Source of the DNA: Clostridia bacterium
GTDB taxonomy: Bacteria; Bacillota; SHA-98; UBA4971
Reading direction: 5' to 3'
DNA length: 64,000 bases
Assembly (NCBI GenBank): GCA_050261175.1
Contig: JBLNDA010000125.1
Coordinates: forward strand, 10,343 to 74,342
Both the position numbers and the translations under genes were made by a program. Under the pieces are notes generated by a model, which was given only the letters and a program-made list of their open reading frames with translations, did no database searches and was not told the origin of the DNA. This document shows positions 2,266-34,532 of the stretch, piece after piece (the stretch's first letter is position 1; the number at the start of each line of letters is the position of its first letter).

Positions 2266-3420
2266 TCAGTTCACCTCTTCCACACGCCCCGCGTTCACCC
2301 GAAAGCGCTTCACAGGGCCGCCCGTCTCGCCGAGCAACCTTTCGTCGGTGGTCGTGATGATGGTCTGCACCCGGTCGTTGAGGTACTCCCAGAGTCGCGC
2401 CCTCTTTCCGGGGTCGAGCTCGCTCGAGACGTCGTCGAGGAGGAGGATTGCATCCTCGCCGACCTCGCTCTTCACGAACTCCAGCTCGCCCAGCCTGAGT
2501 GCGAGGAGGACGGAGCGCTGCTGGCCCTGGGAGCCGAACACCCTCATGTCCACGCCGTCGACGAGGAAGCTGACCTCGTCCCTATGGGGACCGACCAGCG
2601 TCACGCTGCGCATCAGCTCTTCAGGACGGGCCTTCTGGAGTTCGCGCCGGAAGGCTTCTTCCAGCTTCCGCAGCGTCTCGCCGTCGTCGCCCCGCATCGT
2701 GGCGAGTGGTGCCATGCTCGCGTGGAAGGATGGCCTGTATACCATCTCGAAGGCGCCGTCAGGGGATATGTGGCGGTGGGTCACCTTCGCAAGTATGGAC
2801 AGTCTCCTTATGGCCTCCGCCCTCTTGAGCATCACCCGCGCCCCAGCGGCGGCGAGTTGCTCGTCCCATACGTCAAGCGCGCAGTCGCGCCTCGCGGGCG
2901 GCAGAGAGTCGTAACGCGCCTCCTTGAGAAACGCGTTCCTTTGAGCGAGGATCCTCCGGTATGCGGAAAGATGCCTTCGATACGCGTCGCTCACCGCGCC
3001 TATCTCCGTGTCGAGAAAGCGCCGTCGCTCCACGGGGCCGCCTTTTATCATCCGCAGGTCATCGGGGCCGAAAACCACGACGTTGGCGGCGCAAACGTTC
3101 TCGACCGACGCGTCGTGGGGGACTCCGTTGAGCTTCACGGTCTTGCCGGCTTCTCTCGTGCAGCCTACCTCCACGAGGAGCGGCTCTCCGCGACGAATGA
3201 ACCGGCAGGCCGCGTAGAAGCCGCTCTCGCCCCAAGAGATGAGGTCGGCGTCGCGGGAGGTCCGGTAGGACGATCCCGTCCCGCAGAGGTACACAGCCTC
3301 CAAGATGTTCGTCTTGCCCTGGCCGTTGTCACCGGTAATGACGTTTTTCCCGGGGACCGGCTCGAGCTCAGCGGAAGCGTAATTCCTGAAATGCCTGAGC
3401 TTCAACTTCTCAAGCACCAT
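2266..3420 (-). CDS. recF: DNA replication/repair protein RecF
   Basis: MVLEKLKLRHFRNYASAELEPVPGKNVITGDNGQGKTNILEAVY (Walker A) and ...LLLDDVSSELD (Walker B/signature region). The start is taken at the internal Met (3420) rather than the ORF-track start at 3501. It overlaps the yaaA stop. Confidence 0.9.
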   Translation of the reverse strand: MVLEKLKLRHFRNYASAELEPVPGKNVITGDNGQGKTNILEAVYLCGTGSSYRTSRDADLISWGESGFYAACRFIRRGEPLLVEVGCTREAGKTVKLNGVPHDASVENVCAANVVVFGPDDLRMIKGGPVERRRFLDTEIGAVSDAYRRHLSAYRRILAQRNAFLKEARYDSLPPARRDCALDVWDEQLAAAGARVMLKRAEAIRRLSILAKVTHRHISPDGAFEMVYRPSFHASMAPLATMRGDDGETLRKLEEAFRRELQKARPEELMRSVTLVGPHRDEVSFLVDGVDMRVFGSQGQQRSVLLALRLGELEFVKSEVGEDAILLLDDVSSELDPGKRARLWEYLNDRVQTIITTTDERLLGETGGPVKRFRVNAGRVEEVN

Positions 3421-3706
3421 CGCCGGCATCCCCCGCAACCTCGAAGGCCTGACGCGCCCGCTCCCCGGCGCCGGCGCCACCCGCCTCCACCGCGCCCCCA
3501 CTGGGGGTTACGGCCACCACGTCACCGGGACGGAGTTTCCTCCCACGGCGCAGCTCCTGGCGGCCGTTCACGGTGACCCGTCCTTCCTGGACCAACGCCT
3601 TGGCCTGGCCGCCGGTGGGCGCGACGCCGGCCCATTTGAGAAACTGGTCGAGCCTTATCTCCGGGCTCGTGATTGGGACTCTCACGGGCTTGTCGGCGGC
3701 GCTCAT
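3410..3706 (-). CDS. yaaA: S4-domain RNA-binding protein YaaA
   Basis: IRLDQFLKWAGVAPTGGQAKALVQEGRVTVNGRQELRRGRKLRPGDVV is an S4 fold signature. It lies between dnaN and recF as in Bacillus, with an ATGA overlap with the dnaN stop. Confidence 0.8.
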   Translation of the reverse strand: MSAADKPVRVPITSPEIRLDQFLKWAGVAPTGGQAKALVQEGRVTVNGRQELRRGRKLRPGDVVAVTPSGGAVEAGGAGAGERARQAFEVAGDAGDGA

Positions 3707-4899
3707 GAGTTCACCGTCACCGGCATTATGAGGTAGAGGTAGTCCGTGCTTTCGTTTCGAGCTTGTCTCAGCACGACCGGACTCACGGGACCCGTGACTT
3801 CGATGGCAAGCTCGTCGTCGGCCACGGCCCGCAGTGCATCAAGGAGATAACGAGCACGGAGAGCCGTCTCTCCTCTCTCCCCCTCGGTCGCCCCGACCGC
3901 CACTTCCTCGAAGGCCATGCCGACGTCGGGAGCGTTGGCGCTTATGCTGAGGGTATCTGCTCCGTATCCCAGCTTGACCGTGCCGAACTCGTCCTTTCCG
4001 AGGACGGCCACACGCTCGACCGCATCCAGGAGCCTCAGCCTGTCCACGACCATCCGGGTCTTCCAGGCTTTAGGGATCACCCGGTCGTAGTTGGGGAACT
4101 GCCCGTCGATGAGCCGGCTCACGATCGTCGTCTTACGGCATTTGAAAGCCACCTGATTCTGTGAAGCAAAGATCTCGACTTCGCCGCTCTCGTTTTGGAC
4201 TATCCTTCCGACCTCATTCAGCGCCCGCGCGGGGACTATCATTTGTCCCGTACCAGCTTCGCTTGAGGCGGTATTCCCTCCGTCGAGCGTAACCTTGCGG
4301 AGCGCCAGCCTGAACGTGTCAGTGGCGGCCAACCTCGCCTCGTTTCCGCCGAAGGACATGAGAACGCCGGTGAGGAACGGGCGGTTCTCGTCGGTGGCGG
4401 CGGCGAATGCAGTCTGCCTCACGAACTCGGAAAGGTCCTTCCCTTGAACCTTCCACCACACATTTCCTTCCACCTGTGGGAAGAGCGGGAACTCAGCGGC
4501 CTCCATGGAGTTGATACTGTACACCGCCTTCCCGCTCGAAATGGTAGCGACTCGCTTTCCTGGGTCAAACTCGATCCTGACTTCCTTCTCGGGGAGACGC
4601 CTCACTATCTCCCCAAAGTATCGGGCGGGAAGCACCATTGCGGCGTGGCCCGTCGCGCTCACCGGCATGAACGTCTCCACGGACAGCTCGAGGTCGGTTC
4701 CCACCAGGCGAAGGCCTTCAGCTGTGGTCTCGATGAGAATACCCGAGAGGATCGGTAGCGTGGTTCGCGACGACACGGCCCGTTGCACCGTGGCGGCACC
4801 CGTAGCCAAATCGTCCCTCTCACACGAGACTTGAACTGGTGTTTCCACCGGACTCCCCGTTTCCATGCTTGTCTGGCCGAGTGTCTCAAGGCTATCCAT
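3703..4899 (-). CDS. dnaN: DNA polymerase III beta sliding clamp
   Basis: ...TTLPILSGILIETTAEGLRLVGTDLELS...RLIDGQFPNYDRVIP...YLLDAL...MPV. An alternative start is Met12 at 4866. Confidence 0.93.
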   Translation of the reverse strand: MDSLETLGQTSMETGSPVETPVQVSCERDDLATGAATVQRAVSSRTTLPILSGILIETTAEGLRLVGTDLELSVETFMPVSATGHAAMVLPARYFGEIVRRLPEKEVRIEFDPGKRVATISSGKAVYSINSMEAAEFPLFPQVEGNVWWKVQGKDLSEFVRQTAFAAATDENRPFLTGVLMSFGGNEARLAATDTFRLALRKVTLDGGNTASSEAGTGQMIVPARALNEVGRIVQNESGEVEIFASQNQVAFKCRKTTIVSRLIDGQFPNYDRVIPKAWKTRMVVDRLRLLDAVERVAVLGKDEFGTVKLGYGADTLSISANAPDVGMAFEEVAVGATEGERGETALRARYLLDALRAVADDELAIEVTGPVSPVVLRQARNESTDYLYLIMPVTVNS

Positions 4900-5037: not shown

Positions 5038-5270
5038 TTGTCCACAGGGCTGTACTCCGGATCGTCTTTGTTAGTACATGTACAGTTCCTTAGTACTAGT
5101 AGTAGGGGCTGTGGATTTGTGGATAAGCCCGGCGGCGCGTTGAGGCGCGCGGCGTTTCGGTGTGGACAAACCTGTGGATTTCGTCACGGCCTGTCCACAG
5201 TATACACAGGCCGAGAGAATTCGACACGTTAGCCACAGGAAATCCACAGGTTATGAAGGGTCTATCCACA
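5038..5270. other. oriC: oriC part 2 (dnaA-dnaN spacer): DnaA-box array plus a candidate unwinding element
   Basis: DnaA boxes (consensus TTATCCACA / TGTGGATAA): 5038-5046 TTgTCCACA; 5110-5118 TGTGGATtt; 5118-5126 TGTGGATAA (perfect); 5161-5169 TGTGGAcAA; 5173-5181 TGTGGATtt. Further boxes: 5191-5199 cTgTCCACA; 5229-5237 TTAgCCACA; 5240-5248 aaATCCACA; 5262-5270 cTATCCACA. The AT-rich stretch 5070-5105 ends in TAGTAGTAG-GGGC directly abutting the tandem boxes at 5110-5126. Confidence 0.85.
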
Positions 5271-5316
5271 GGAAGCGCACAGTGTGCCCTGGCGCGGGCG
5301 CTATAGTGGGCCAAGG

Positions 5317-6669
5317 TCAAGTCATCTCCTTCAACCTGGCGATGATCGTGCGGATAGTGCCTGCAAGGGCCTCGTCCTCTTCCATGTCCGCGCGTATTTT
5401 CGAGCAAGCGTGGAGGACCGTAGTGTGATCCCTGCCTCCGAAGGCGAAGCCGATTGTGGGAAGGGATTCCTCAGTGAGCTCGCGGCACAGGTACATGGCG
5501 ACCTGCCGGGGATACGAGATGGTCCTCGTTCGCTTCTTCGCCTTCATGTCGTCGGTGGGGATCTGGTAGAACTCCGCGACCGCCTGTTGGATGTGGTAAA
5601 TCGAAACCTGTTTCGGCCTTTCGGACGGGATCATGTCTTTCAGACATTCCGCAGCTGTGGCCACGGTGACGGGGCGGTTGTGTATGGAGCAGTGAGCGGC
5701 GACGCGCGTGAGGGCGCCCTCGAGCTCACGGATGTTTGAGCGAATCTGATTCGCGATGTACGCAAGTACCTCGAGGGGCATGTCAAGCTGCTCGAGCTGA
5801 GCCTTCTTCTTGAGGATGGCTATCCGCGTCTCGAGGTCGGGCGCCTGTATATCGGAAATGAGACCCCATTCGAAGCGTGAGCGGAGCCTATCCTCGAGGG
5901 TTGGGATCTCTTTGGGCGGGCGGTCGCTGGATATCACAATCTGCTTGCCCGCCTCATGCAGAGTGTTGAAAGTATGGAAGAACTCCTCTTGGGTACGCTC
6001 CTTTTGCGCCAGGAACTGCACGTCGTCGATGAGCAGGACGTCCACGTTGCGGTATCGCTCCCGGAATTCCACGGTCTTGTCGTCCCTGATCGCGTTGATG
6101 AGGTCGTTCGTGAATCTCTCACAAGGCGCGTACACCACGCGCGTAGACGGGCTGTGCTGAAGGACGAAGTGCCCTATGGCCTGCATCAAGTGGGTCTTCC
6201 CGAGCCCGACGCCTCCATAGATGAAGAGGGGGTTATAGGCCCTGCCGGGAGCCTCGGCGACGGCGAGGCAGGCCGCGTGGGCGAACCTGTTGCTATTTCC
6301 CACCACGAAAGTGTCAAACGTGTACTTGGGGTTCAATCGGGTCGTGTACAGGTCGTCGCCCATGAGAGACCCGGCGTGGGCGGAGTCGTCCGCTTCCAGG
6401 TCGTCCGTCTTCTCCGACGGGACGGAGCAGACGAATGACACGTCCAGGTCCCGCTCCGTGAGGGCCTTGAGAGTCTGCCGGATGGGCTGCCGGTAGTTGT
6501 CGCTGAGGAACTTCCGGCCGATGTCATGGAGGGTCCGTACTACGAGCGTATTCCCGTCGATGGCGATTCCCTGTGTACCCCGCAGCCATGTCTCGAAACT
6601 GGGCTTCGGTATCTGCCCTTGCATCACCTCGAGAACCTTGGCCCAGAGCGTATCCGCACGTTCAAGCAT
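5317..6669 (-). CDS. dnaA: Chromosomal replication initiator protein DnaA
   Basis: 450 aa: ...NPLFIYGGVGLGKTHLMQAIG (Walker A), LLIDDVQFL, and a C-terminal DNA-binding domain ...YPRQVAMYLCRELTEESLPTIGFAFGGRDHTTVLHA. Confidence 0.97.
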   Translation of the reverse strand: MLERADTLWAKVLEVMQGQIPKPSFETWLRGTQGIAIDGNTLVVRTLHDIGRKFLSDNYRQPIRQTLKALTERDLDVSFVCSVPSEKTDDLEADDSAHAGSLMGDDLYTTRLNPKYTFDTFVVGNSNRFAHAACLAVAEAPGRAYNPLFIYGGVGLGKTHLMQAIGHFVLQHSPSTRVVYAPCERFTNDLINAIRDDKTVEFRERYRNVDVLLIDDVQFLAQKERTQEEFFHTFNTLHEAGKQIVISSDRPPKEIPTLEDRLRSRFEWGLISDIQAPDLETRIAILKKKAQLEQLDMPLEVLAYIANQIRSNIRELEGALTRVAAHCSIHNRPVTVATAAECLKDMIPSERPKQVSIYHIQQAVAEFYQIPTDDMKAKKRTRTISYPRQVAMYLCRELTEESLPTIGFAFGGRDHTTVLHACSKIRADMEEDEALAGTIRTIIARLKEMT

Positions 6670-6724
6670 AAGTCATTGACCCCCTGAAAGAAGGCTCAGC
6701 CTCGCCCGTCCGCTCACCGGCAGG

Positions 6725-7675
6725 TCATCTCGCGAGGCGGGCGAGGTAAGTCATGCCCCGCGAAGTGAGGCGCCGTTTGCCGCTCCCGTCGGCCGGCTCG
6801 ACGAGCCCGTACTCCTCGAGGGAGACGAGATCGCGGTAGGCGGTGCTGAGGCTCATGTCGAGCTCCTTCACGATTGTGGACGGCCCCGCCTCACCCTTTT
6901 CGGCGAGCACACGGAACACCTTTCGCTGTCGCTCCGAAAGTATCTCATCCAGCTTTTCAAACAAGCTCTTTTCCTGATCCGTCTGGGTGAAAGAGACCCC
7001 ATCGTCTCCGGCGCCTTTCCAGGGGCCCGGGAAAACCTCCGGATGGGGCCCAGGGAAAGGAGAGGCAGGAGCCCTCTCCCTGCCGGAGGACTTTTCGGAA
7101 ACCTCTGGAGGCGTTTCGGACGACTTGGAAAGCGAGGAAAGCGTGACCACACACCCGCGTTTCAGATTGTCCTCTATGGAAACCGAGCCGCCGATCGCGC
7201 GCATTGAGTCGCGGACGATCGGAAGACCCGAGCCGACCCCACGGATAATCTTCCGCATCTCGGTGGTGGCCGTAGTGAAACCAGGGAGGAATGCCTTCTC
7301 CTTCTCGATTATCCCAGGGCCCTGGTCTGAGACCCTTATAGTATTGCCGTCGGGCAGGATGCTTATGACCGCGTCTTGAAAGTCAGCGTGGAGGAGGTTC
7401 TCGACGATCTCCTTGATAGCGACGTACGGGAGTCGTCCTCCCTTTTCATGAGCGAAGGAGTACGCCTTCGAGGCAATCTCGTTGAGCAGCTCGGCGCAGT
7501 CCCTGCCCCTGACGTCGACGATTCGCGGCACGGTGCTCAGGGAGTCGTACACAGCTATGCGGACCTCGTGCTCTCCCTGTCTTCCACGCTGGGGCGAGTG
7601 ATCGGCGGATGGAGAGGGATGGACGAGGCGGCCGTGGGAGCCTTTTCGAAAGAGACGTGAAAAGACACCTGCCAT
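6725..7675 (-). CDS. GHKL (HATPase_c-like) ATPase fused to a C-terminal winged-helix (MarR/TrmB-like) domain; function unknown
   Basis: N box EIVENLLHA, G1 DQGPGI and G2 GVGSGLPIV are present. A low-complexity linker is followed by LSERQRKVFRVLAEKGEAGPSTIVKELDMSLSTAYRDLVSLEEYGLVEP...RLTSRG. The start is placed at Met113 of ORF 6725..8011, because the upstream 112 codons are translated DnaA boxes. The gap to dnaA is 55 nt. Confidence 0.7.
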   Translation of the reverse strand: MAGVFSRLFRKGSHGRLVHPSPSADHSPQRGRQGEHEVRIAVYDSLSTVPRIVDVRGRDCAELLNEIASKAYSFAHEKGGRLPYVAIKEIVENLLHADFQDAVISILPDGNTIRVSDQGPGIIEKEKAFLPGFTTATTEMRKIIRGVGSGLPIVRDSMRAIGGSVSIEDNLKRGCVVTLSSLSKSSETPPEVSEKSSGRERAPASPFPGPHPEVFPGPWKGAGDDGVSFTQTDQEKSLFEKLDEILSERQRKVFRVLAEKGEAGPSTIVKELDMSLSTAYRDLVSLEEYGLVEPADGSGKRRLTSRGMTYLARLAR

Positions 7676-27140: not shown

Positions 27141-27386
27141 TTGAGCGAAGGCAGGTTTGACCCGGAGCTTGTCAGGGCTTTCAAATTCTACGGCACCATC
27201 AGCTTCAACATCGCAGGGTCGATGGCTCTGGGGTTTGCCGCAGGCTACGCACTCGACGCCAAGCTGGGGACACGCCCGTGCCTGGCCGTCACGGGGTTCC
27301 TCCTTGGCGCCCTCGCGGGGTTCTGGGGCGTTTACAAACTTGTTATGTCCGAGTTCCACGACAGACCGCCGAAGCCCAAATCATGA
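27141..27386 (+). CDS. atpZ: AtpZ/AtpI-family small membrane protein (ATP synthase gene 1)
   Basis: 81 aa with two TM segments (YGTISFNIAGSMALGFAAGYALD...LAVTGFLLGALAGFWGVY). It is the first gene of the atp operon. Confidence 0.7.
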   Translation: MSEGRFDPELVRAFKFYGTISFNIAGSMALGFAAGYALDAKLGTRPCLAVTGFLLGALAGFWGVYKLVMSEFHDRPPKPKS

Positions 27387-27730
27387 AGTCCGCTGAAGGG
27401 GGACACTTCTGCATGGCAGCAGGGTTACTCGCGGGCGCCCTCCTCGGGGCGCTTGATCTTTTCACGATGGTCCGAATGGCAAGCAAGGCGGCTGCGCTCA
27501 GCCCGGCCCGAGCGTCCACGCTCGTGCGGTGGACGGCCCTCGGTCGCATGGTCCTCATCTTCCTGGTGCTGGCGCTGGGTGCGATGGTCCTGAACCAGCC
27601 GGCCTTCCTGTGCCTGGCAGCGAGCTACATCGGCGTCCGTCTCTGCGGGCTTCTCGTGGTGACCGGGAGGCATCCAGGCGCCCGGGCCCGGCGAGGCCGC
27701 AGCCTGCCTTCCGACAGCCGGGCCGGGTGA
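27383..27730 (+). CDS. atpI: ATP synthase protein I
   Basis: A hydrophobic protein of about 115 aa between atpZ and atpB. The ATG at 27383 overlaps the atpZ stop. The ORF-track start at 27278 is upstream of this. Confidence 0.55.
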   Translation: MKSAEGGHFCMAAGLLAGALLGALDLFTMVRMASKAAALSPARASTLVRWTALGRMVLIFLVLALGAMVLNQPAFLCLAASYIGVRLCGLLVVTGRHPGARARRGRSLPSDSRAG

Positions 27731-27752: not shown

Positions 27753-28451
27753 GTGCTTGGCGGCCTAATCGGGGGAGAGGACATGACACACGCTTCGAGT
27801 GAGATCGGCGCGCACCTCGTGCTGCGCTTAGGCATGTTCACGTGTCACCTGGACACCATCATCATGACCTGGATCGTCATGGCCTTGCTCGTGGTGGTGG
27901 CCGTTGTCGCGGGGAGGAGGATGAAAGACGTCCCCGGCGGGCTCCAGAACATGGTGGAGTACGGCGTGGAGGCTTTGTGGGGCCTTGTCGCCGACAACGT
28001 ACCGCCGAGGGCGCGGGGGTGTTTCCCCGTCATCGCGACGCTGTTCCTGTTCATCCTGGCGTCCAACCTCATAGGAGTGGTGCCCGGGATGAAGTCGCCG
28101 ACAGCGGACATCAACGTGACGCTCGCGCTCGCCGCGGTGGTGCTGGGGCTCACGATCTATGCAGGGGCGTCGGTCAAGGGTGTACGGGGGTACATCGTGG
28201 GGTTCGTGAAGCCGAACCCGTTGTTCCTTCCGTTGAACCTGATCGAGCTCTGCACGCGAGCCATCACGCTGGCCCTGCGTCTGTTCGGGAACATCTTCGC
28301 CGGCGACGTGCTCGTCATAATCCTGGGGAAACTCGTCGCGTACGCCGTCCCCGCGGTCGGCCAGGCATTCCACGTGTTTGTGGGAGTGCTCCAGGCGTAT
28401 CTCTTCGTCATGCTGTCCATCGCCTACGTGACAGTGGCGGCGGAGGACTAG
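27753..28451 (+). CDS. atpB: F0F1 ATP synthase subunit a
   Basis: ...LFLFILASNLIGVVPGMKSPTADINVTLALA...ITLALRLFGNIFAGDVLV...VLQAYLFVMLSIAYV. An alternative ATG is at 27783. Confidence 0.93.
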   Translation: MLGGLIGGEDMTHASSEIGAHLVLRLGMFTCHLDTIIMTWIVMALLVVVAVVAGRRMKDVPGGLQNMVEYGVEALWGLVADNVPPRARGCFPVIATLFLFILASNLIGVVPGMKSPTADINVTLALAAVVLGLTIYAGASVKGVRGYIVGFVKPNPLFLPLNLIELCTRAITLALRLFGNIFAGDVLVIILGKLVAYAVPAVGQAFHVFVGVLQAYLFVMLSIAYVTVAAED

Positions 28452-28759
28452 CCACGTGAGGCTTCCGGGGCCCGCTTCGCCTGGCCGGGTCCGGGCGTGA
28501 GCCGTACCGATGGGCCTGGCGGGGCTGCCGCCGGGCCGCGGCCTACGGGCTCTCGGCGTGAGGGCTTTCCGGATCGCGGGGGCTGGCCTCCGAGCCACGG
28601 GGCCCGCCGACCGCACGAGGGCCCGGCGGTGAGCCGGTGGGCCTGGTGAGGACGGCGACACTCAAGGAAAGGTGGAAGATCGCGGGCTCGAGGGAAGCCC
28701 GCATCGGTGTCTGAATCGGCACTCGAGCAAAAAGCGTCAAGCAAGGGAGAGGAATCACC

Positions 28760-29014
28760 ATGACAGAAGTCATGCTTCTGAAGCTCGTTTCGGTAGCTGC
28801 CATTTGCATCATCGTGTGCGTCGCGGCGCTGGTGGCAGGGCTCGGCGACGCCCATGTGGCCGGGAAGGCCGTGGACGGCATAGCGCGCCAGCCGGAAGCC
28901 AAAGCCTCCATCTTCTCGACGATGCTCATAGGCATAGGCCTGGTCGAGGCGACACCCATCATAGCGTTGGTGGTAGCGCTCATCCTCCTTTATGCCAACC
29001 CGTTCATGGGCTGA
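28760..29014 (+). CDS. atpE: F0F1 ATP synthase subunit c
   Basis: [52 protein letters not shown], with a GGGAGAGG RBS. Confidence 0.95.
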
Positions 29015-29137: not shown

Positions 29138-29641
29138 TTGATCCAGATCGATATGACCTTTTTCGCAAGCATACTGAACTTCCTTCTGCTCACTGCGCTC
29201 CTTACGTTCTTCCTGTACAGGCCGGTCCGGAAATTCATGATGGACCGCCAGGACCGCATAAAGCGATCCCTCGAGGAGGCGGCGCAGAGCCGCGCCGAGA
29301 GCGCGAAAATGAAGCAGGAGTACGAGTCGCGCCTCGCCCAGGCGAGCCGCGAGGCGCAGGATATCATCGAGAAGGCCGTGGTGCAGGGGGAGCGGGCGCA
29401 GGCCGAGATCCTAGAGGCGGCGCGCAAAGAGGCCAAGGCCATTCTCGAGCAGGCGAGGATCGAGGCGGCCCGCGAGCGGCAGGCGGCGTTCGAGGCTCTG
29501 CGGGATGACATTGTGGATCTCGTCATATCCACCGCGAGCGTGGTCGCCGGGAAGAAGATCGATTCTTCCGACGACGAAGCCGTCGTGAAGCGCCTCCTAG
29601 AAGAGGGCTGGCTCGCCAGCGTTGGGGAGCGGAGACTATGA
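29138..29641 (+). CDS. atpF: F0F1 ATP synthase subunit b
   Basis: An N-terminal TM segment ([27 protein letters not shown]) followed by a long charged helix. It has a TTG start with a GAGGAGGG RBS. Confidence 0.9.
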
Positions 29642-31459
29642 AAGCTATCAGGAAGAAGGCACAGCCGCCGGTCGAAAGGCCTCTGCGCGTCATCGTGAGA
29701 ACCGCGAGGCCTCTCTCCCCGGAACTCGGGGAGCGTATCCGCGCCCACCTGTCAGAGGCCCTGAGACGTCCCGTGGCCCTCTCCTTCGAGCACGATCCCT
29801 CCCTGCTGGGCGGGATTGCGTTTCAGCTGGGCAACACGGTGGTGGACGCGAGCACGAGTCGAGGCCTGGAAGAGCTCAGGGCGAAACTCGCCGAGCACCT
29901 TCGCGTGGCGGTCCCGGTTCCGCCGCCGGAGACTCCCGCCGGCCGCGCCGACCTGCCGCGCGAGGCGCTCAGGTCCGCCATACGCCTGGTCGAGAGCCAG
30001 ACGCCGCTTCCAGTCGTGGAAGAAGTTGGTACCGTCATCGTCGTGGGCGACGGTGTCGCGAGAGTGAGCGGACTTCCGTCGGCCATGGCCGGGGAGCTCG
30101 TGGCCTTCGACGGAGGCGGCGAGGGAATGGTGCTCGACCTGGATGTGGATGCGGTGGGGTGCATCATCTTTAGCGGCGGGGAGAGGATCGTCGAGGGGAC
30201 CGTCGTCCGGTGCACGGGGAGGGTGGCGGACGTGCCTGTGGGGGAAGAGCTGCTCGGGCGCGTGGTGAACCCCCTCGGCGAGCCTCTGGACGGCAAGGGG
30301 CCCATCCTCGCCCGCGCGAGGCGTAACATCGAGGGCCAGGCGCCCGGCATCGCGGATCGAGAACCCGTGAGTGTGCCGCTGCAAACGGGCATTCTCGCCG
30401 TTGACGCCATGGTGCCCATCGGGCGGGGGCAGCGCGAGCTCATCATCGGCGACCGGCAAACGGGCAAGACATCCATAGCGGTGGACGCCATAATCAGTCA
30501 GAGGGGCTCCGGGGTGCTCTGTGTGTACGTGGCCATAGGCCAAAAGGCCTCCAGCATAGCGCAGACCGTCGGCGTGCTCGAGGAGCACGGAGCCCTTCCG
30601 TATACCGTTGTCGTCGCCGCGTCCGCAAGCGACCCCGCGCCGCTTCAGTACATCGCCCCGTACGCGGGCTGCTCCATGGCGGAGCACTTCATGTACAGCG
30701 GCAGGGACGTGCTCATCGTCTACGACGATCTCTCGAAGCACGCGGCCGCACACAGGGAAGTCGCCCTCCTGCTTCGCAGGCCCCCCGGCCGGGAAGCCTA
30801 CCCGGGGGACGTCTTCTACATCCACGGCCGCCTGCTCGAGCGGGCGGCGAAGCTGTCGAAGGAGCGCGGCGGAGGTTCCATGACCGCGCTGCCTATCGTG
30901 GAGACGCTGGCCGGAGACGTGTCGGCATACATCCCGACCAATACCATCTCCATCACGGACGGCCAGATCTACCTCGAGAGCGACCTATTCTTCTCCGGCG
31001 TCCGGCCCGCGGTGAACGTGGGGCTTTCCGTGTCGCGCGTCGGCGGTGACGCGCAGCTGCCTGCGATGCGGGAACTCTCATCCCACCTGCGCCTTGATCT
31101 TGCGCAGTACCGCGAGCTCTCCGCCTTCGCCCAGTTCGGGGCGGACCTCGACAAAGCCACTCAGGCACAGCTTCACCGGGGTGAGCGGATATTGGAGGTC
31201 CTCAAACAATCGAACCACGAGGTTCTCGCCGTCGAGGAGGAGATCGTCATGCTCTTCGCGCTTTCCGGAGAGTGGCTCGACGACGTCCCCGTGGACCAGG
31301 CGAGGTGGTTTGTGAGGGAGTTCCTCGTGCACATCAAGGAAGCGTATCCGTCCCTCATGCGCCGGATACGCGAGACCGGGCGCATCGACGAAGTGAGACG
31401 GGACCTCGGGCGCGCGCTGGGCACGTTCAAGTCGGATTTCGCGGGGGTGATGGGGCGCC

Positions 31460-31476
<17 letters not shown>
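29638..31476 (+). CDS. atpA: ATP synthase delta (C-terminal domain only) fused in frame to the alpha subunit
   Basis: Residues 1-88 resemble the OSCP/delta C-terminus ([65 protein letters not shown]). A Pro-rich linker ([11 protein letters not shown]) follows, then a full alpha subunit: [19 protein letters not shown]...[15 protein letters not shown]...[23 protein letters not shown]. There is no stop codon between the two parts. The ATG overlaps the atpF stop. Confidence 0.85.
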
Positions 31477-34073
<2,597 letters not shown>

Positions 34074-34076
34074 GCC

Positions 34077-34532
34077 GTGTCCAAGACAATGCGGCTTGAG
34101 GTTGTGACGCCCGACAGACTCGAGTTCTCGGGCGACGTGGAATCGATCATAGCTCCAACCGTATCAGGGTACATCGGGATCCTTCCCGGCCACATACCCT
34201 TGATAGCGAGGCTCGCGGTGGGAGTGCTCACGGTACGAATGGGAGCCTCCCGGCTCACCCTGGCCGTGAGTGAAGGATACATGGAAGTCTCGCCGCGCAA
34301 GGTCATCGTCCTCGCGGAAGCCGCGGAGATGCCGGGAGAGATCGATGTGGAGCGGGCGCTCGCGGCCAAACGCCGGGCCGAGGAGATTCTCGCCACGAGC
34401 AAGGAACACTTGGTGTTGGCACGCGCCCGGGCGTCGCTGCAGAAGGCCATCAACCGCCTCAAGGTGGCGAAATACAAGAACGGAAGCGGAAAGGGATCTC
34501 CATCCGCGCCGGAGAAAATAGCAGGAGAATAG
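34077..34532 (+). CDS. atpC: F0F1 ATP synthase subunit epsilon
   Basis: MRLEVVTPDRLEFSGDVESIIAPTVSGYIGILPGHIPLIARL... The alternative ATG is at 34089. Confidence 0.9.
   Translation: MSKTMRLEVVTPDRLEFSGDVESIIAPTVSGYIGILPGHIPLIARLAVGVLTVRMGASRLTLAVSEGYMEVSPRKVIVLAEAAEMPGEIDVERALAAKRRAEEILATSKEHLVLARARASLQKAINRLKVAKYKNGSGKGSPSAPEKIAGE

What the first reader, a model, noticed from the sequence alone, without database searches (positions are those of the whole stretch)
29638..31476. The ATP synthase delta subunit is reduced to its C-terminal domain and fused in frame to alpha
Seen: one uninterrupted 612-codon ORF starts with an ATG overlapping the atpF stop. Its first roughly 88 residues look like the C-terminal domain of delta/OSCP (...[64 protein letters not shown]). 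A Pro-rich linker ([13 protein letters not shown]) then leads into a complete alpha subunit beginning at the usual N-terminal helix ([14 protein letters not shown]...[19 protein letters not shown]). There is no stop codon, no obvious SD and no ATG at the junction. There is also no room for the delta N-terminal domain of about 100 residues anywhere between atpF and atpA. Established knowledge: the delta N-domain normally clamps the alpha N-terminal helices, and the delta C-domain binds the b dimer. Mycobacteria fuse b with delta, but I am not aware of a described delta(CTD)-alpha fusion. Inference: the covalent link may replace the alphaN-deltaN contact. That raises a stoichiometry puzzle, with three tethered delta-CTDs for one peripheral stalk, unless an internal start (for example the GTG at 29905) also yields free alpha.
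Basis: partly seen in the sequence, partly recalled or inferred. Interest (0 to 1): 0.6.

Follow-up and report, generated by a model that had tools for sequence, protein, structure and literature searches.

The report
Natural delta(C-domain)-alpha fused ATP synthase subunit
The ATP synthase alpha gene here really does carry the stalk-binding half of subunit delta fused to its front; engineers built the same design in 2025 and got an enzyme with up to three side stalks and about twice as many protons per ATP, but the fusion had already been noted in other bacteria.

Summary
ORF 29638-31476 (612 aa) has three parts. The delta/OSCP C-terminal domain alone occupies aa 17-88. A disordered Pro-rich linker occupies aa 89-105. 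A complete F-type alpha follows.

It is not an assembly error. The same fusion, in a syntenic atpZ-I-a-c-b-[deltaC-alpha]-gamma-beta-epsilon operon, occurs in all 9 species of the genus. It also occurs in two other families of this uncultured Bacillota class and in at least four further families of the phylum. In four genomes, one of them a closed 2.88-Mb genome, it is the only F-type alpha and no separate delta exists.

The delta part is under purifying selection (dN/dS 0.15-0.20). The linker in this genus is nearly neutral (about 0.9).

The best PDB match by both sequence and fold is 9JC1, the engineered Bacillus PS3 deltaDeltaN-alpha fusion. That enzyme assembles up to three b2 stalks and three a subunits and has H+/ATP 5.8.

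The same paper already names natural fusions (Acidaminococcus fermentans), and a 2026 preprint notes them. This is therefore a new member of a known but untested kind.

New here: the genome also holds a complete canonical F1Fo with full-length delta and a Na+-motif c subunit. The fused enzyme has an H+-type c subunit.

The parts
27141..27386 (+). atpZ-like small membrane protein, the first gene of the operon
   Evidence: Pfam PF09527 ATPase_gene1, E 9e-15. The same gene sits at the same place in relative L005/L006.
27383..27730 (+). atpI-like hydrophobic protein. The start is inferred as the ATG that overlaps the atpZ stop.
   Evidence: Weak PF03899 ATP-synt_I match, E 0.0019, below the cut-off. 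A 110-aa ORF without a Pfam hit occupies the same slot in L005.
27753..28451 (+). atpB, Fo subunit a (exact start uncertain)
   Evidence: PF00119, E 7e-50.
28760..29014 (+). atpE, subunit c, with an H+-type ion site (…[10 protein letters not shown]…[12 protein letters not shown]…; no Q / ES-T / Y Na+ signature)
   Evidence: PF00137, E 5e-15. The ion assignment rests on the published Na+ signature, recalled from knowledge.
29138..29641 (+). atpF, subunit b, 167 aa and a separate gene. Its stop overlaps the fusion's ATG.
   Evidence: PF00430, E 1.7e-26. Sequence.
29638..29685 (+). Basic N-terminal tail of the fusion, aa 1-16 ([16 protein letters not shown])
   Evidence: Conserved within the genus. 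AlphaFold pLDDT is below 50 for aa 1-12.
29686..29901 (+). Delta/OSCP C-terminal domain, aa 17-88 (beta-alpha-beta-beta-beta-alpha)
   Evidence: PF00213 positions 104-172 of 172. NCBIfam delta models match only their C-terminal third. AlphaFold gives E16-22, H28-42, E46-52, E60-64, E67-70 and H73-91 with pLDDT 66-83. dN/dS is 0.196.
29902..29952 (+). Pro/Ala-rich flexible linker, aa 89-105
   Evidence: pLDDT is below 50 for aa 93-105. Length and sequence vary between relatives while the frame is kept. dN/dS is about 0.9 within the genus.
29953..30012 (+). Alpha N-terminal helix, aa 106-125. This is the element that contacts delta and b in known structures.
   Evidence: Helix 106-119 in the model. 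It aligns to the alpha N-terminus of 9JC1 chain I and to PS3 alpha residues of about 18 onwards.
30013..31476 (+). Alpha core: crown beta-barrel, nucleotide-binding domain and C-terminal helical domain
   Evidence: PF02874, PF00006 and PF00306. TIGR00962, 727 bits. dN/dS is 0.063.
31460..32365 (+). atpG, gamma
   Evidence: PF00231, E 4e-87.
32556..34073 (+). atpD, beta (505 aa), with a Gly/Ser/Ala-rich insert of about 35-40 aa in the crown barrel
   Evidence: PF00006 and a split PF02874 match. Alignment of beta N-termini.
34077..34532 (+). atpC, epsilon, with both the beta-sandwich and the C-terminal helical domain
   Evidence: PF02823 and PF00401.

Best explanation
Shown: ORF 29638-31476 is a genuine, selected gene (atpH'A) of a complete F1Fo operon. 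It encodes alpha with the C-terminal, b-binding domain of delta tethered to its N-terminal helix by a flexible linker of about 15-25 residues. The delta N-terminal domain, which in ordinary enzymes caps the alpha3beta3 crown and breaks its threefold symmetry, is absent from the operon. Inferred: the protein is made as one chain of about 66 kDa, so every F1 head carries three stalk-docking sites. The covalent tether replaces the lost deltaN-alphaN clamp. Nothing then limits the stator to one stalk, so the enzyme most likely binds more than one b2 stalk, each bringing its own a subunit. The engineered Bacillus PS3 deltaDeltaN-alpha enzyme does this, with up to 3 stalks and 3 a subunits. That would raise the H+/ATP ratio and allow ATP synthesis (or pumping) at a low proton-motive force. 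This suits the energy-poor anaerobic digester habitat from which these genomes come. In this genus the fused, apparently H+-coupled enzyme coexists with a canonical enzyme that has a full-length delta and an apparently Na+-coupled c subunit, which suggests two differently geared machines.
For: Architecture.

Conservation: four further protein clusters of 611-619 aa, all with PF00213 plus the alpha domains. A syntenic operon occurs in three independent assemblies. All 9 species of the genus, families f2 and f3 of the class, and f18, f21, f45 and f88 of the phylum carry a CTD-only OSCP match inside a 590-660-aa open frame.

The fusion is the sole F-type alpha, with no separate delta, in G018, G020, G036 and the closed genome G039. 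The enzyme must therefore work without any delta N-domain.

Selection: dN/dS of the delta part is 0.15-0.20 in three independent species pairs. The linker is about 0.9 in the window's genus, and in-frame indels occur only in the linker. Translational coupling to atpF (4-14-nt overlaps) is kept in most lineages.

No SD-backed internal start exists in the window or its genus.

Structure: the model shows the delta C-domain fold, a disordered linker and the alpha N-helix. The three best fold matches in the PDB are chains I, K and J of 9JC1, with 593-594 aligned columns against at most 515 for any plain alpha. 9JC1_I is also the best sequence match of the first 180 aa, collinear over 19-178, and matches 19-601 of the whole protein.

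Function of that design: up to three stalks and three a subunits, H+/ATP 5.8 against 3.0, and equilibrium pmf halved (PMC12229609). A natural two-stalk, two-a F1Fo exists in Chloroflexus (PMC12002316).
Against: Translation as one uncleaved chain and the number of stalks are therefore inferences. In the engineered enzyme three-stalk particles were rare and the average was two. A natural b/a expression ratio or c-ring geometry could still limit the enzyme to one stalk. The natural linker is longer and Pro-rich rather than GGSGG. Genus g4 has an AGGAGG plus ATG inside the linker region, so free alpha may be made in some lineages. A later check of a related finding of this scan priced the multi-stalk claim for another fusion family at only 17/100.
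Confidence: 0.5

Rival explanations
1. The fusion is real and translated as one chain, but the enzyme still has a single peripheral stalk. One of the three tethered delta C-domains binds b2 and the other two stay idle on the crown. The fusion then only serves as a tether that compensates for the lost delta N-domain.
For: The operon has one a and one b gene in the canonical order, and nothing points to higher a/b dosage. In the engineered enzyme stalk occupancy was incomplete, and fully three-stalked particles were rare. The long flexible linker would tolerate unbound domains.
Against: The engineered enzyme with the same architecture spontaneously took on about two stalks and about two a subunits on average without any change in gene dosage. 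According to that study the delta N-domain is what limits the stalk number to one, and it is absent here.
Confidence: 0.3
2. The ORF is expressed as two products. Internal initiation or proteolysis in the linker would yield free alpha plus a small free delta C-domain, or a mixture of fused and free alpha. The head would then carry fewer than three docking sites.
For: The linker is disordered and evolves nearly neutrally. In genus g4 an AGGAGG precedes in-frame ATGs at codons 94/96 (duplex -10 to -11 kcal/mol).
Against: In the window and its genus no in-frame start with an SD lies between the delta domain and the alpha helix. GTG codon 90 gives -2.2 kcal/mol, and L005 has only an SD-less ATG at codon 117. 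The frame is maintained across variable linkers in every lineage, which separate expression would not require. The engineers expected a free deltaDeltaN to bind F1 poorly.
Confidence: 0.1
3. In this genus the fused alpha works together with the full-length delta (or other subunits) of the second operon, giving hybrid enzymes with one canonical stalk.
For: A full-length delta and a second complete F1Fo gene set exist on contig C20 of the same genome.
Against: Four relatives carry the fusion as their only F-type alpha and have no other delta. The two alphas are old paralogues that lie on separate branches, about 65% identical. The two c subunits have different ion-site signatures.
Confidence: 0.05
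4. Assembly or sequencing artefact: a missed stop or frameshift joins a short atpH to atpA.
For: The genome is a draft MAG, 86% complete in 133 contigs, and reads could not be inspected.
Against: The same continuous frame occurs in more than 20 species genomes and in independent ENA, NCBI and Logan assemblies. Linker indels always preserve the frame, and the delta part is under purifying selection.
Confidence: 0.01

Closest known systems
Engineered deltaDeltaN-alpha fused FoF1 of Bacillus PS3 (Ueno et al., Nat Commun 2025, PMC12229609; PDB 9JC1)
   Same: The domain order is identical: delta residues ~105-178, a short linker, then full alpha from its N-terminal helix, with no delta N-domain. 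It is the best PDB match of the window protein by sequence and by fold. b, a and c are separate genes.
   Different: The window protein is natural and selected. Its linker is 15-25 residues and Pro/Ala-rich instead of GGSGG. It has an extra basic 16-residue N-terminal tail. Epsilon keeps its C-terminal domain. Stalk number and H+/ATP ratio are unmeasured.
Natural deltaDeltaN-alpha fusions named in print: Acidaminococcus fermentans, UniProt G4Q3K6 and A0A1I2C5T3 (PMC12229609, Discussion). Delta-alpha fusions are also noted in Mulkidjanian et al., bioRxiv 10.64898/2026.10.01.756066.
   Same: Same kind of gene: the delta N-domain is missing and the delta C-part is fused to the N-terminus of alpha within the atp operon. 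Multiple stalks are predicted but untested.
   Different: The lineage differs: an uncultured class of Bacillota from anaerobic digesters rather than cultured Negativicutes. I did not compare the sequences directly. Here the fusion operon coexists with a canonical operon that has a full-length delta.
Two-stalk F1Fo of Chloroflexus aurantiacus (Zhang et al., PNAS 2025, PMC12002316)
   Same: It is a natural F-type enzyme in which a reduced delta N-domain lets more than one delta C-domain/b2 stalk and more than one a subunit bind.
   Different: Delta there is a separate protein. It keeps a shortened N-domain that dimerises on the crown, giving exactly two stalks. There is no fusion to alpha.
N-ATPase subunit b with a delta-like C-terminus (TIGR03321)
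   Same: There is no delta N-domain, and the delta C-domain-like module is covalently attached to a neighbouring stator subunit. TIGR03321 matches aa 15-83 of the window protein (E 4e-8).
   Different: The module is fused to b, not to alpha. The N-ATPase gene order (beta-epsilon-Q-R-a-c-b-alpha-gamma) is not found here. The alternate-alpha model TIGR03324 scores below its cut-off (625 against 750.5).
Mycobacterial b-delta fusion (PDB 7JG5 chain d)
   Same: Delta is covalently joined to another stator subunit.
   Different: In mycobacteria a full delta is fused to b and the enzyme has a single stalk. Here b is a separate 167-aa protein.

Membership tests
F-type ATP synthase subunit alpha (TIGR00962 / PF02874+PF00006+PF00306) | Full-length match above the curated cut-off, with all three alpha domains in order | tested here: met
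   TIGR00962 scores 727 bits against 484.45. All three Pfam domains are above their cut-offs.
ATP synthase delta / OSCP (PF00213) | C-terminal alpha/beta domain that binds the b dimer | tested here: met
   Profile positions 104-172 match at 43.4 bits against 22.3. The modelled fold is beta-alpha-beta-beta-beta-alpha.
ATP synthase delta / OSCP (PF00213) | N-terminal helical bundle that caps the crown and binds the alpha N-termini | tested here: not met
   No match to profile positions 1-103. There is no coding room, because atpF and the fusion overlap by 4 nt.
Natural deltaDeltaN-alpha fusion (as defined in PMC12229609) | The delta and alpha reading frames are fused in the atp operon | tested here: met
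   A single 612-codon ORF, conserved in more than 20 genomes.
Natural deltaDeltaN-alpha fusion (as defined in PMC12229609) | The delta N-terminal domain is missing | tested here: met
   The protein is collinear with 9JC1 chain I over 19-601 / 7-576.
Multi-stalk F1Fo ATP synthase | More than one b2 peripheral stalk and more than one a subunit per complex, with a raised ion/ATP ratio | not testable with these tools
   This needs subunit stoichiometry, cryo-EM or pmf-equilibrium measurements. It is known only by analogy to 9JC1.
N-ATPase (alternate F1Fo) | Alternate alpha (TIGR03324) above its cut-off, the atpDCQRBEFAG gene order, and b carrying the delta-like tail | tested here: not met
   TIGR03324 scores 625 against 750.5. 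The gene order is Z-I-a-c-b-(deltaC-alpha)-gamma-beta-epsilon. b is 167 aa with PF00430 only.
Mycobacterial-type b-delta fusion | b and delta in one polypeptide | tested here: not met
   atpF ends with its own stop at 29641.

The most novel reading that the evidence does not exclude
This uncultured digester-dwelling class would run two differently geared F-type ATP synthases side by side. One would be a threefold-symmetric, H+-coupled enzyme with two or three b2 stalks and two or three a subunits, with an ion/ATP ratio roughly two to three times that of the c-ring alone, for life at very low proton-motive force. The other would be a canonical single-stalk, Na+-coupled enzyme. In sister lineages the multi-stalk enzyme would be the only F-type ATP synthase.
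Probability: 0.3. Interest if true: 0.75.

Novelty: new member of a known kind. Interest (0 to 1): 0.5.

Why it matters
The number of peripheral stalks and a subunits sets, together with c-ring size, the ion/ATP ratio. That ratio is one of the basic parameters of bioenergetics. Until 2025 it was thought to be fixed at one stalk in all F-type enzymes. An engineered deltaDeltaN-alpha fusion showed that the ratio can be doubled, and the authors asked whether nature does the same.

This window adds a well-conserved natural lineage with that design. It also offers two useful contrasts. One is a canonical paralogous enzyme in the same cell, which is a built-in comparison. The other is relatives in which the fused enzyme is the sole F-type ATP synthase, which shows it is sufficient. 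The operon is small (about 7.4 kb) and could be expressed in E. coli DK8 exactly as the engineered one was. That makes the question of whether natural multi-stalk F1Fo exists, and what it is for, directly testable.

Tried and rejected
(1) The exhaustive profile search of 1.84 billion cluster representatives with aa 1-130 returned only ordinary deltas, b-delta fusions and short fragments. The fused proteins are hidden inside alpha clusters at 50% identity, so this search was uninformative for the census.

With full-length fusions it saturated on ordinary alphas. tblastn also joined adjacent delta and alpha genes, so its 'residues matched 20-601' was misleading. I re-derived ORFs myself. That turned up four other fused forms by chance.

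(3) I first read G009 (same family) as a 'split' version with a free 90-aa delta C-domain plus alpha. This is an artefact. A 100-N scaffold gap covers the b C-terminus and the delta N-domain, and its alpha is the orthologue of the canonical C20 alpha.

(4) Genus g3 showed an OSCP N-domain-only ORF, which might have been the missing delta half. Those genomes have no F-type alpha at all, and the ORF is not near any atp gene.

(5) Internal start at GTG 29905: it has no SD and is not conserved.

(6) N-ATPase membership was rejected.

(8) The search for cultured carriers close to this clade found only MAG proteins labelled 'Firmicutes/Bacillota bacterium'.

(9) One Pfam call failed on a bad reference and was repeated.
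Full report
**1. Observation**

The window holds a complete F-type ATP synthase operon on the + strand.

| Gene | Coordinates | Note |
|---|---|---|
| atpZ-like | 27141-27386 | PF09527 |
| atpI-like | about 27383-27730 | weak PF03899 |
| a | 27753-28451 | |
| c | 28760-29014 | |
| b | 29138-29641 | |
| flagged ORF | 29638-31476 | |
| gamma | 31460-32365 | |
| beta | 32556-34073 | |
| epsilon | 34077-34532 | |

The flagged ORF is one uninterrupted frame of 612 codons, and its ATG overlaps the atpF stop (…CTATGA…).

- Pfam places the OSCP/delta model on aa 17-84, but only profile positions 104-172 of 172 (43.4 bits, cut-off 22.3). The three alpha domains follow.
- NCBIfam's atpA equivalog scores 727 bits (cut-off 484). 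Every delta model matches only with its C-terminal third.
- The junction contains no stop and no ATG. Its only in-frame start codon is GTG at codon 90, which has no Shine-Dalgarno sequence (-2.2 kcal/mol against -8 to -13 for the genuine starts of the operon).

**2. It is real, conserved and selected**

- A word-indexed search scored on aa 1-130 alone found four further protein clusters of 611-619 aa. They are 61-71% identical in that region, all have OSCP plus alpha domains, and all come from 'Firmicutes/Bacillota bacterium' MAGs.
- One of these clusters is encoded in three independent assemblies: an ENA biogas-fermenter metagenome, NCBI GCA_012842395.1, and a Logan assembly. The operon and its flanks are syntenic in all three (VanW-like gene upstream; aminotransferase and thymidylate kinase downstream).
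- In whole genomes, all 9 species of the genus carry a CTD-only OSCP match inside an open frame of 630-655 aa.
- The class has only 22 species genomes. Families f2 (G018, G020) and f3 (G019, G021) also have the fusion.
- Further away in the phylum the same architecture occurs in families f18, f21, f45 and f88. That is roughly 15 of 251 sampled genomes.
- Alignments show a conserved delta C-domain and alpha N-helix. Between them lies a linker that varies in length and sequence but never breaks the frame.
- In three independent species pairs dN/dS of the delta part is 0.15-0.20. The alpha core gives 0.04-0.06 in the two pairs where dS could be estimated. The linker is about 0.9 within the window's genus.
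- The 4-14-nt overlap with atpF, which implies translational coupling, is kept in most lineages.

**3. Is a normal delta needed?**

The window's own genome has a second OSCP match on contig C20. It is full length (positions 6-172) and lies in a second gene set c-b-delta-alpha-gamma-beta-epsilon, with its a gene 16 kb upstream.

G018, G020, G036 and G039 have exactly one F-type alpha, the fused one, and no other delta. G039 is a closed 2.88-Mb genome scored 100% complete. The fused enzyme therefore functions without any delta N-domain.

On an alpha tree the fused alphas of the class form one starred clade, and those of family f21 form another. Holding the two together is not rejected and even gives a better likelihood (p-AU 0.66). 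Adding the G036 and 'Geddesella' fusions lowers the likelihood by 52 units (p-AU 0.087). The canonical C20 alpha lies on a separate branch. The two enzymes are therefore old paralogues, not recent duplicates.

**4. Structure**

An AlphaFold2 model (31-sequence alignment, mean pLDDT 72.7) gives the following for the N-terminus:

- beta-alpha-beta-beta-beta-alpha over aa 16-91, with pLDDT 66-83;
- a disordered stretch over aa 93-105;
- a helix over aa 106-119, followed by the alpha crown barrel.

This is the four-strand, two-helix delta C-domain described for solved enzymes.

The three best Foldseek hits in the PDB are chains I, K and J of 9JC1, with 593-594 aligned columns and TM 0.72-0.76. Every ordinary alpha chain aligns over at most 515 columns. 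By sequence, 9JC1_I is the best match of the first 180 residues (E 2.3e-15, one collinear stretch 19-178 against 7-154). It also matches 19-601 of the whole protein.

**5. What 9JC1 is, and how the window enzyme most likely works**

Ueno et al. (Nat Commun 2025, PMC12229609) deleted the delta N-domain (residues 2-104) of Bacillus PS3. They fused delta 105-178 through a short linker to the alpha N-terminus. They did so because a free truncated delta was expected to bind F1 poorly.

- The enzyme took up on average about two, and at most three, b2 stalks, each with its own a subunit.
- Its H+/ATP ratio was 5.8 against 3.0 for wild type.
- The equilibrium pmf was halved.
- The authors conclude that the delta N-domain is what restricts F1Fo to one stalk.

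By analogy, and this step is inferred rather than shown, the window enzyme is most likely a multi-stalk, high-ratio ATP synthase suited to low proton-motive force. That fits the anaerobic digester origin of these MAGs. A natural two-stalk, two-a enzyme has been solved for Chloroflexus aurantiacus. There a shortened, dimerising delta N-domain gives the same relaxation (PMC12002316).

The main rival is that only one stalk binds and two delta domains stay idle. Expression as two products is a minor rival for this genus, which has no SD-backed internal start. It is more plausible in genus g4, which has AGGAGG plus ATG at codons 94/96.

**6. Novelty**

- The Discussion of PMC12229609 reports that the Acidaminococcus fermentans atp operon has a delta-alpha gene fusion lacking the delta N-domain. 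It calls a multi-stalk structure 'highly likely' and names two more UniProt entries.
- A bioRxiv preprint of October 2026 (Mulkidjanian et al.) notes fusions of delta, or of only its C-terminal part, to alpha. It links short deltas to multiple stalks.
- No paper in the held library reports a biochemical or structural study of a natural fusion enzyme.
- Earlier notes of this scan describe the same design in several other lineages.

This is therefore a new member of a known, experimentally untested kind.

What this case adds:

- (a) A distinct, well-sampled lineage with clear selection on the delta part.
- (b) Genomes where the fused enzyme is the only F-type ATP synthase.
- (c) Coexistence in one genome with a canonical paralogous enzyme.
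- (d) Different ion-site signatures. The c subunit of the fused operon lacks the Q / E-S/T / Y sodium signature (…[10 protein letters not shown]…[10 protein letters not shown]…). The c subunit of the canonical operon has it (…GVGQGFAAGK…AETTGIYALV…). The signature is recalled from published work on Na+ F-ATPases, so the assignment is an inference.

**7. Corrections to my own intermediate readings**

- A seemingly 'split' relative (G009: 90-aa delta C-domain plus separate alpha) is a scaffold-gap artefact. It belongs to the canonical paralogue.
- The delta N-domain-only ORFs of genus g3 sit in genomes without any F-type alpha.

**8. Verdict**

| Question | Verdict |
|---|---|
| Observation | Confirmed |
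| Mechanism | Tethered stalk-docking domains on all three alphas; multi-stalk assembly is the most likely but untested consequence |
| Probability that the fusion is a real, selected single gene | About 0.97 |
| Probability of more than one stalk in the working enzyme | About 0.5 |

Noticed in passing
Own genome contig C20 (L016 4990-10872; a gene at G000:C20:5048-5629, L102): There is a second, canonical F1Fo gene set (c-b-delta-alpha-gamma-beta-epsilon). Its a gene lies 16 kb upstream. Its c subunit carries the Na+-binding signature (GVGQG…AETTGIY). Its delta (226-aa ORF) has a Pro/Ala/Gly/Ser-rich C-terminal tail of about 50 aa. Its epsilon is only 91 aa and lacks the C-terminal helical domain.
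   Followed up: partly
window 32655-32774: Beta carries a Gly/Ser/Ala-rich insert of about 35-40 aa in the crown beta-barrel, next to where the delta domains would sit. The insert is present in the fused operons of genera g1 and g4. It is absent from those of G019, G021, G039 and G036, so it is not strictly linked to the fusion.
   Followed up: partly
window 28452-28759 and 32366-32555: The operon has unusually long intergenic spacers: 308 nt between atpB and atpE, and 190 nt between atpG and atpD. The other gene junctions overlap or nearly abut.
   Followed up: no
L012 6204-6587 (G010) and 7 other genomes of genus g3: There is an orphan 113-127-aa ORF matching only the N-terminal domain of OSCP (positions 6-97, E about 1e-12 to 1e-13). 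The genomes (GC about 42%) have no F-type alpha at all, and the ORF is not next to any atp gene. Its function is unknown.
   Followed up: partly
L064 1991-4258; L086 2210-4258; L037 1883-4414; L073 2384-4183: Other fused forms turned up by chance among alpha loci. L064 (Clostridiales MAG RUG282) is a b + delta C-domain + alpha triple fusion of 755 aa. L086 (Lachnospiraceae MAG) is a full-length delta-alpha fusion of 682 aa. L037 (Actinomycetota MAG) is an 843-aa ORF with about 100 aa, then full delta, then alpha. L073 ('Candidatus Geddesella stercoravicola') is a second delta C-domain-alpha fusion of 599 aa.
   Followed up: partly
G082:C205:1826-2377; G068:C36:17748-18533; G196:C9:26333-26803: Further variants occur in the phylum. 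G082 has two tandem delta C-domains in a 711-aa frame ahead of alpha. G068 has a delta followed by an extra C-domain in a 299-aa frame. G196 has a full-length delta in a 678-aa frame, apparently fused to alpha.
   Followed up: no
L010 about codons 92-96 of 5197-7029(-); L013 about codon 96 of 2577-4409(+): In genus g4 the linker region contains AGGAGG/AAGAGG followed by in-frame ATGs (…ARRMEMAMAGRE…), with anti-SD duplex energy of -8.5 to -11 kcal/mol. Free alpha might be co-produced there by internal initiation.
   Followed up: no
L008 8546-8809(-) and L009 5731-5943(+): The c subunits of the fused operons of G039 (…GLGQG…IESLTIY…) and G036 (…TESSSIY…) carry Na+-type residues. Those of the window's class do not. 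The fusion design is therefore not tied to one coupling ion.
   Followed up: no
L011 about 7240-7360 (G009:C4): A 100-N scaffold gap inside the b-delta region makes delta look like a 90-aa C-domain-only gene. This is a trap for automated censuses of 'short delta' genes.
   Followed up: yes
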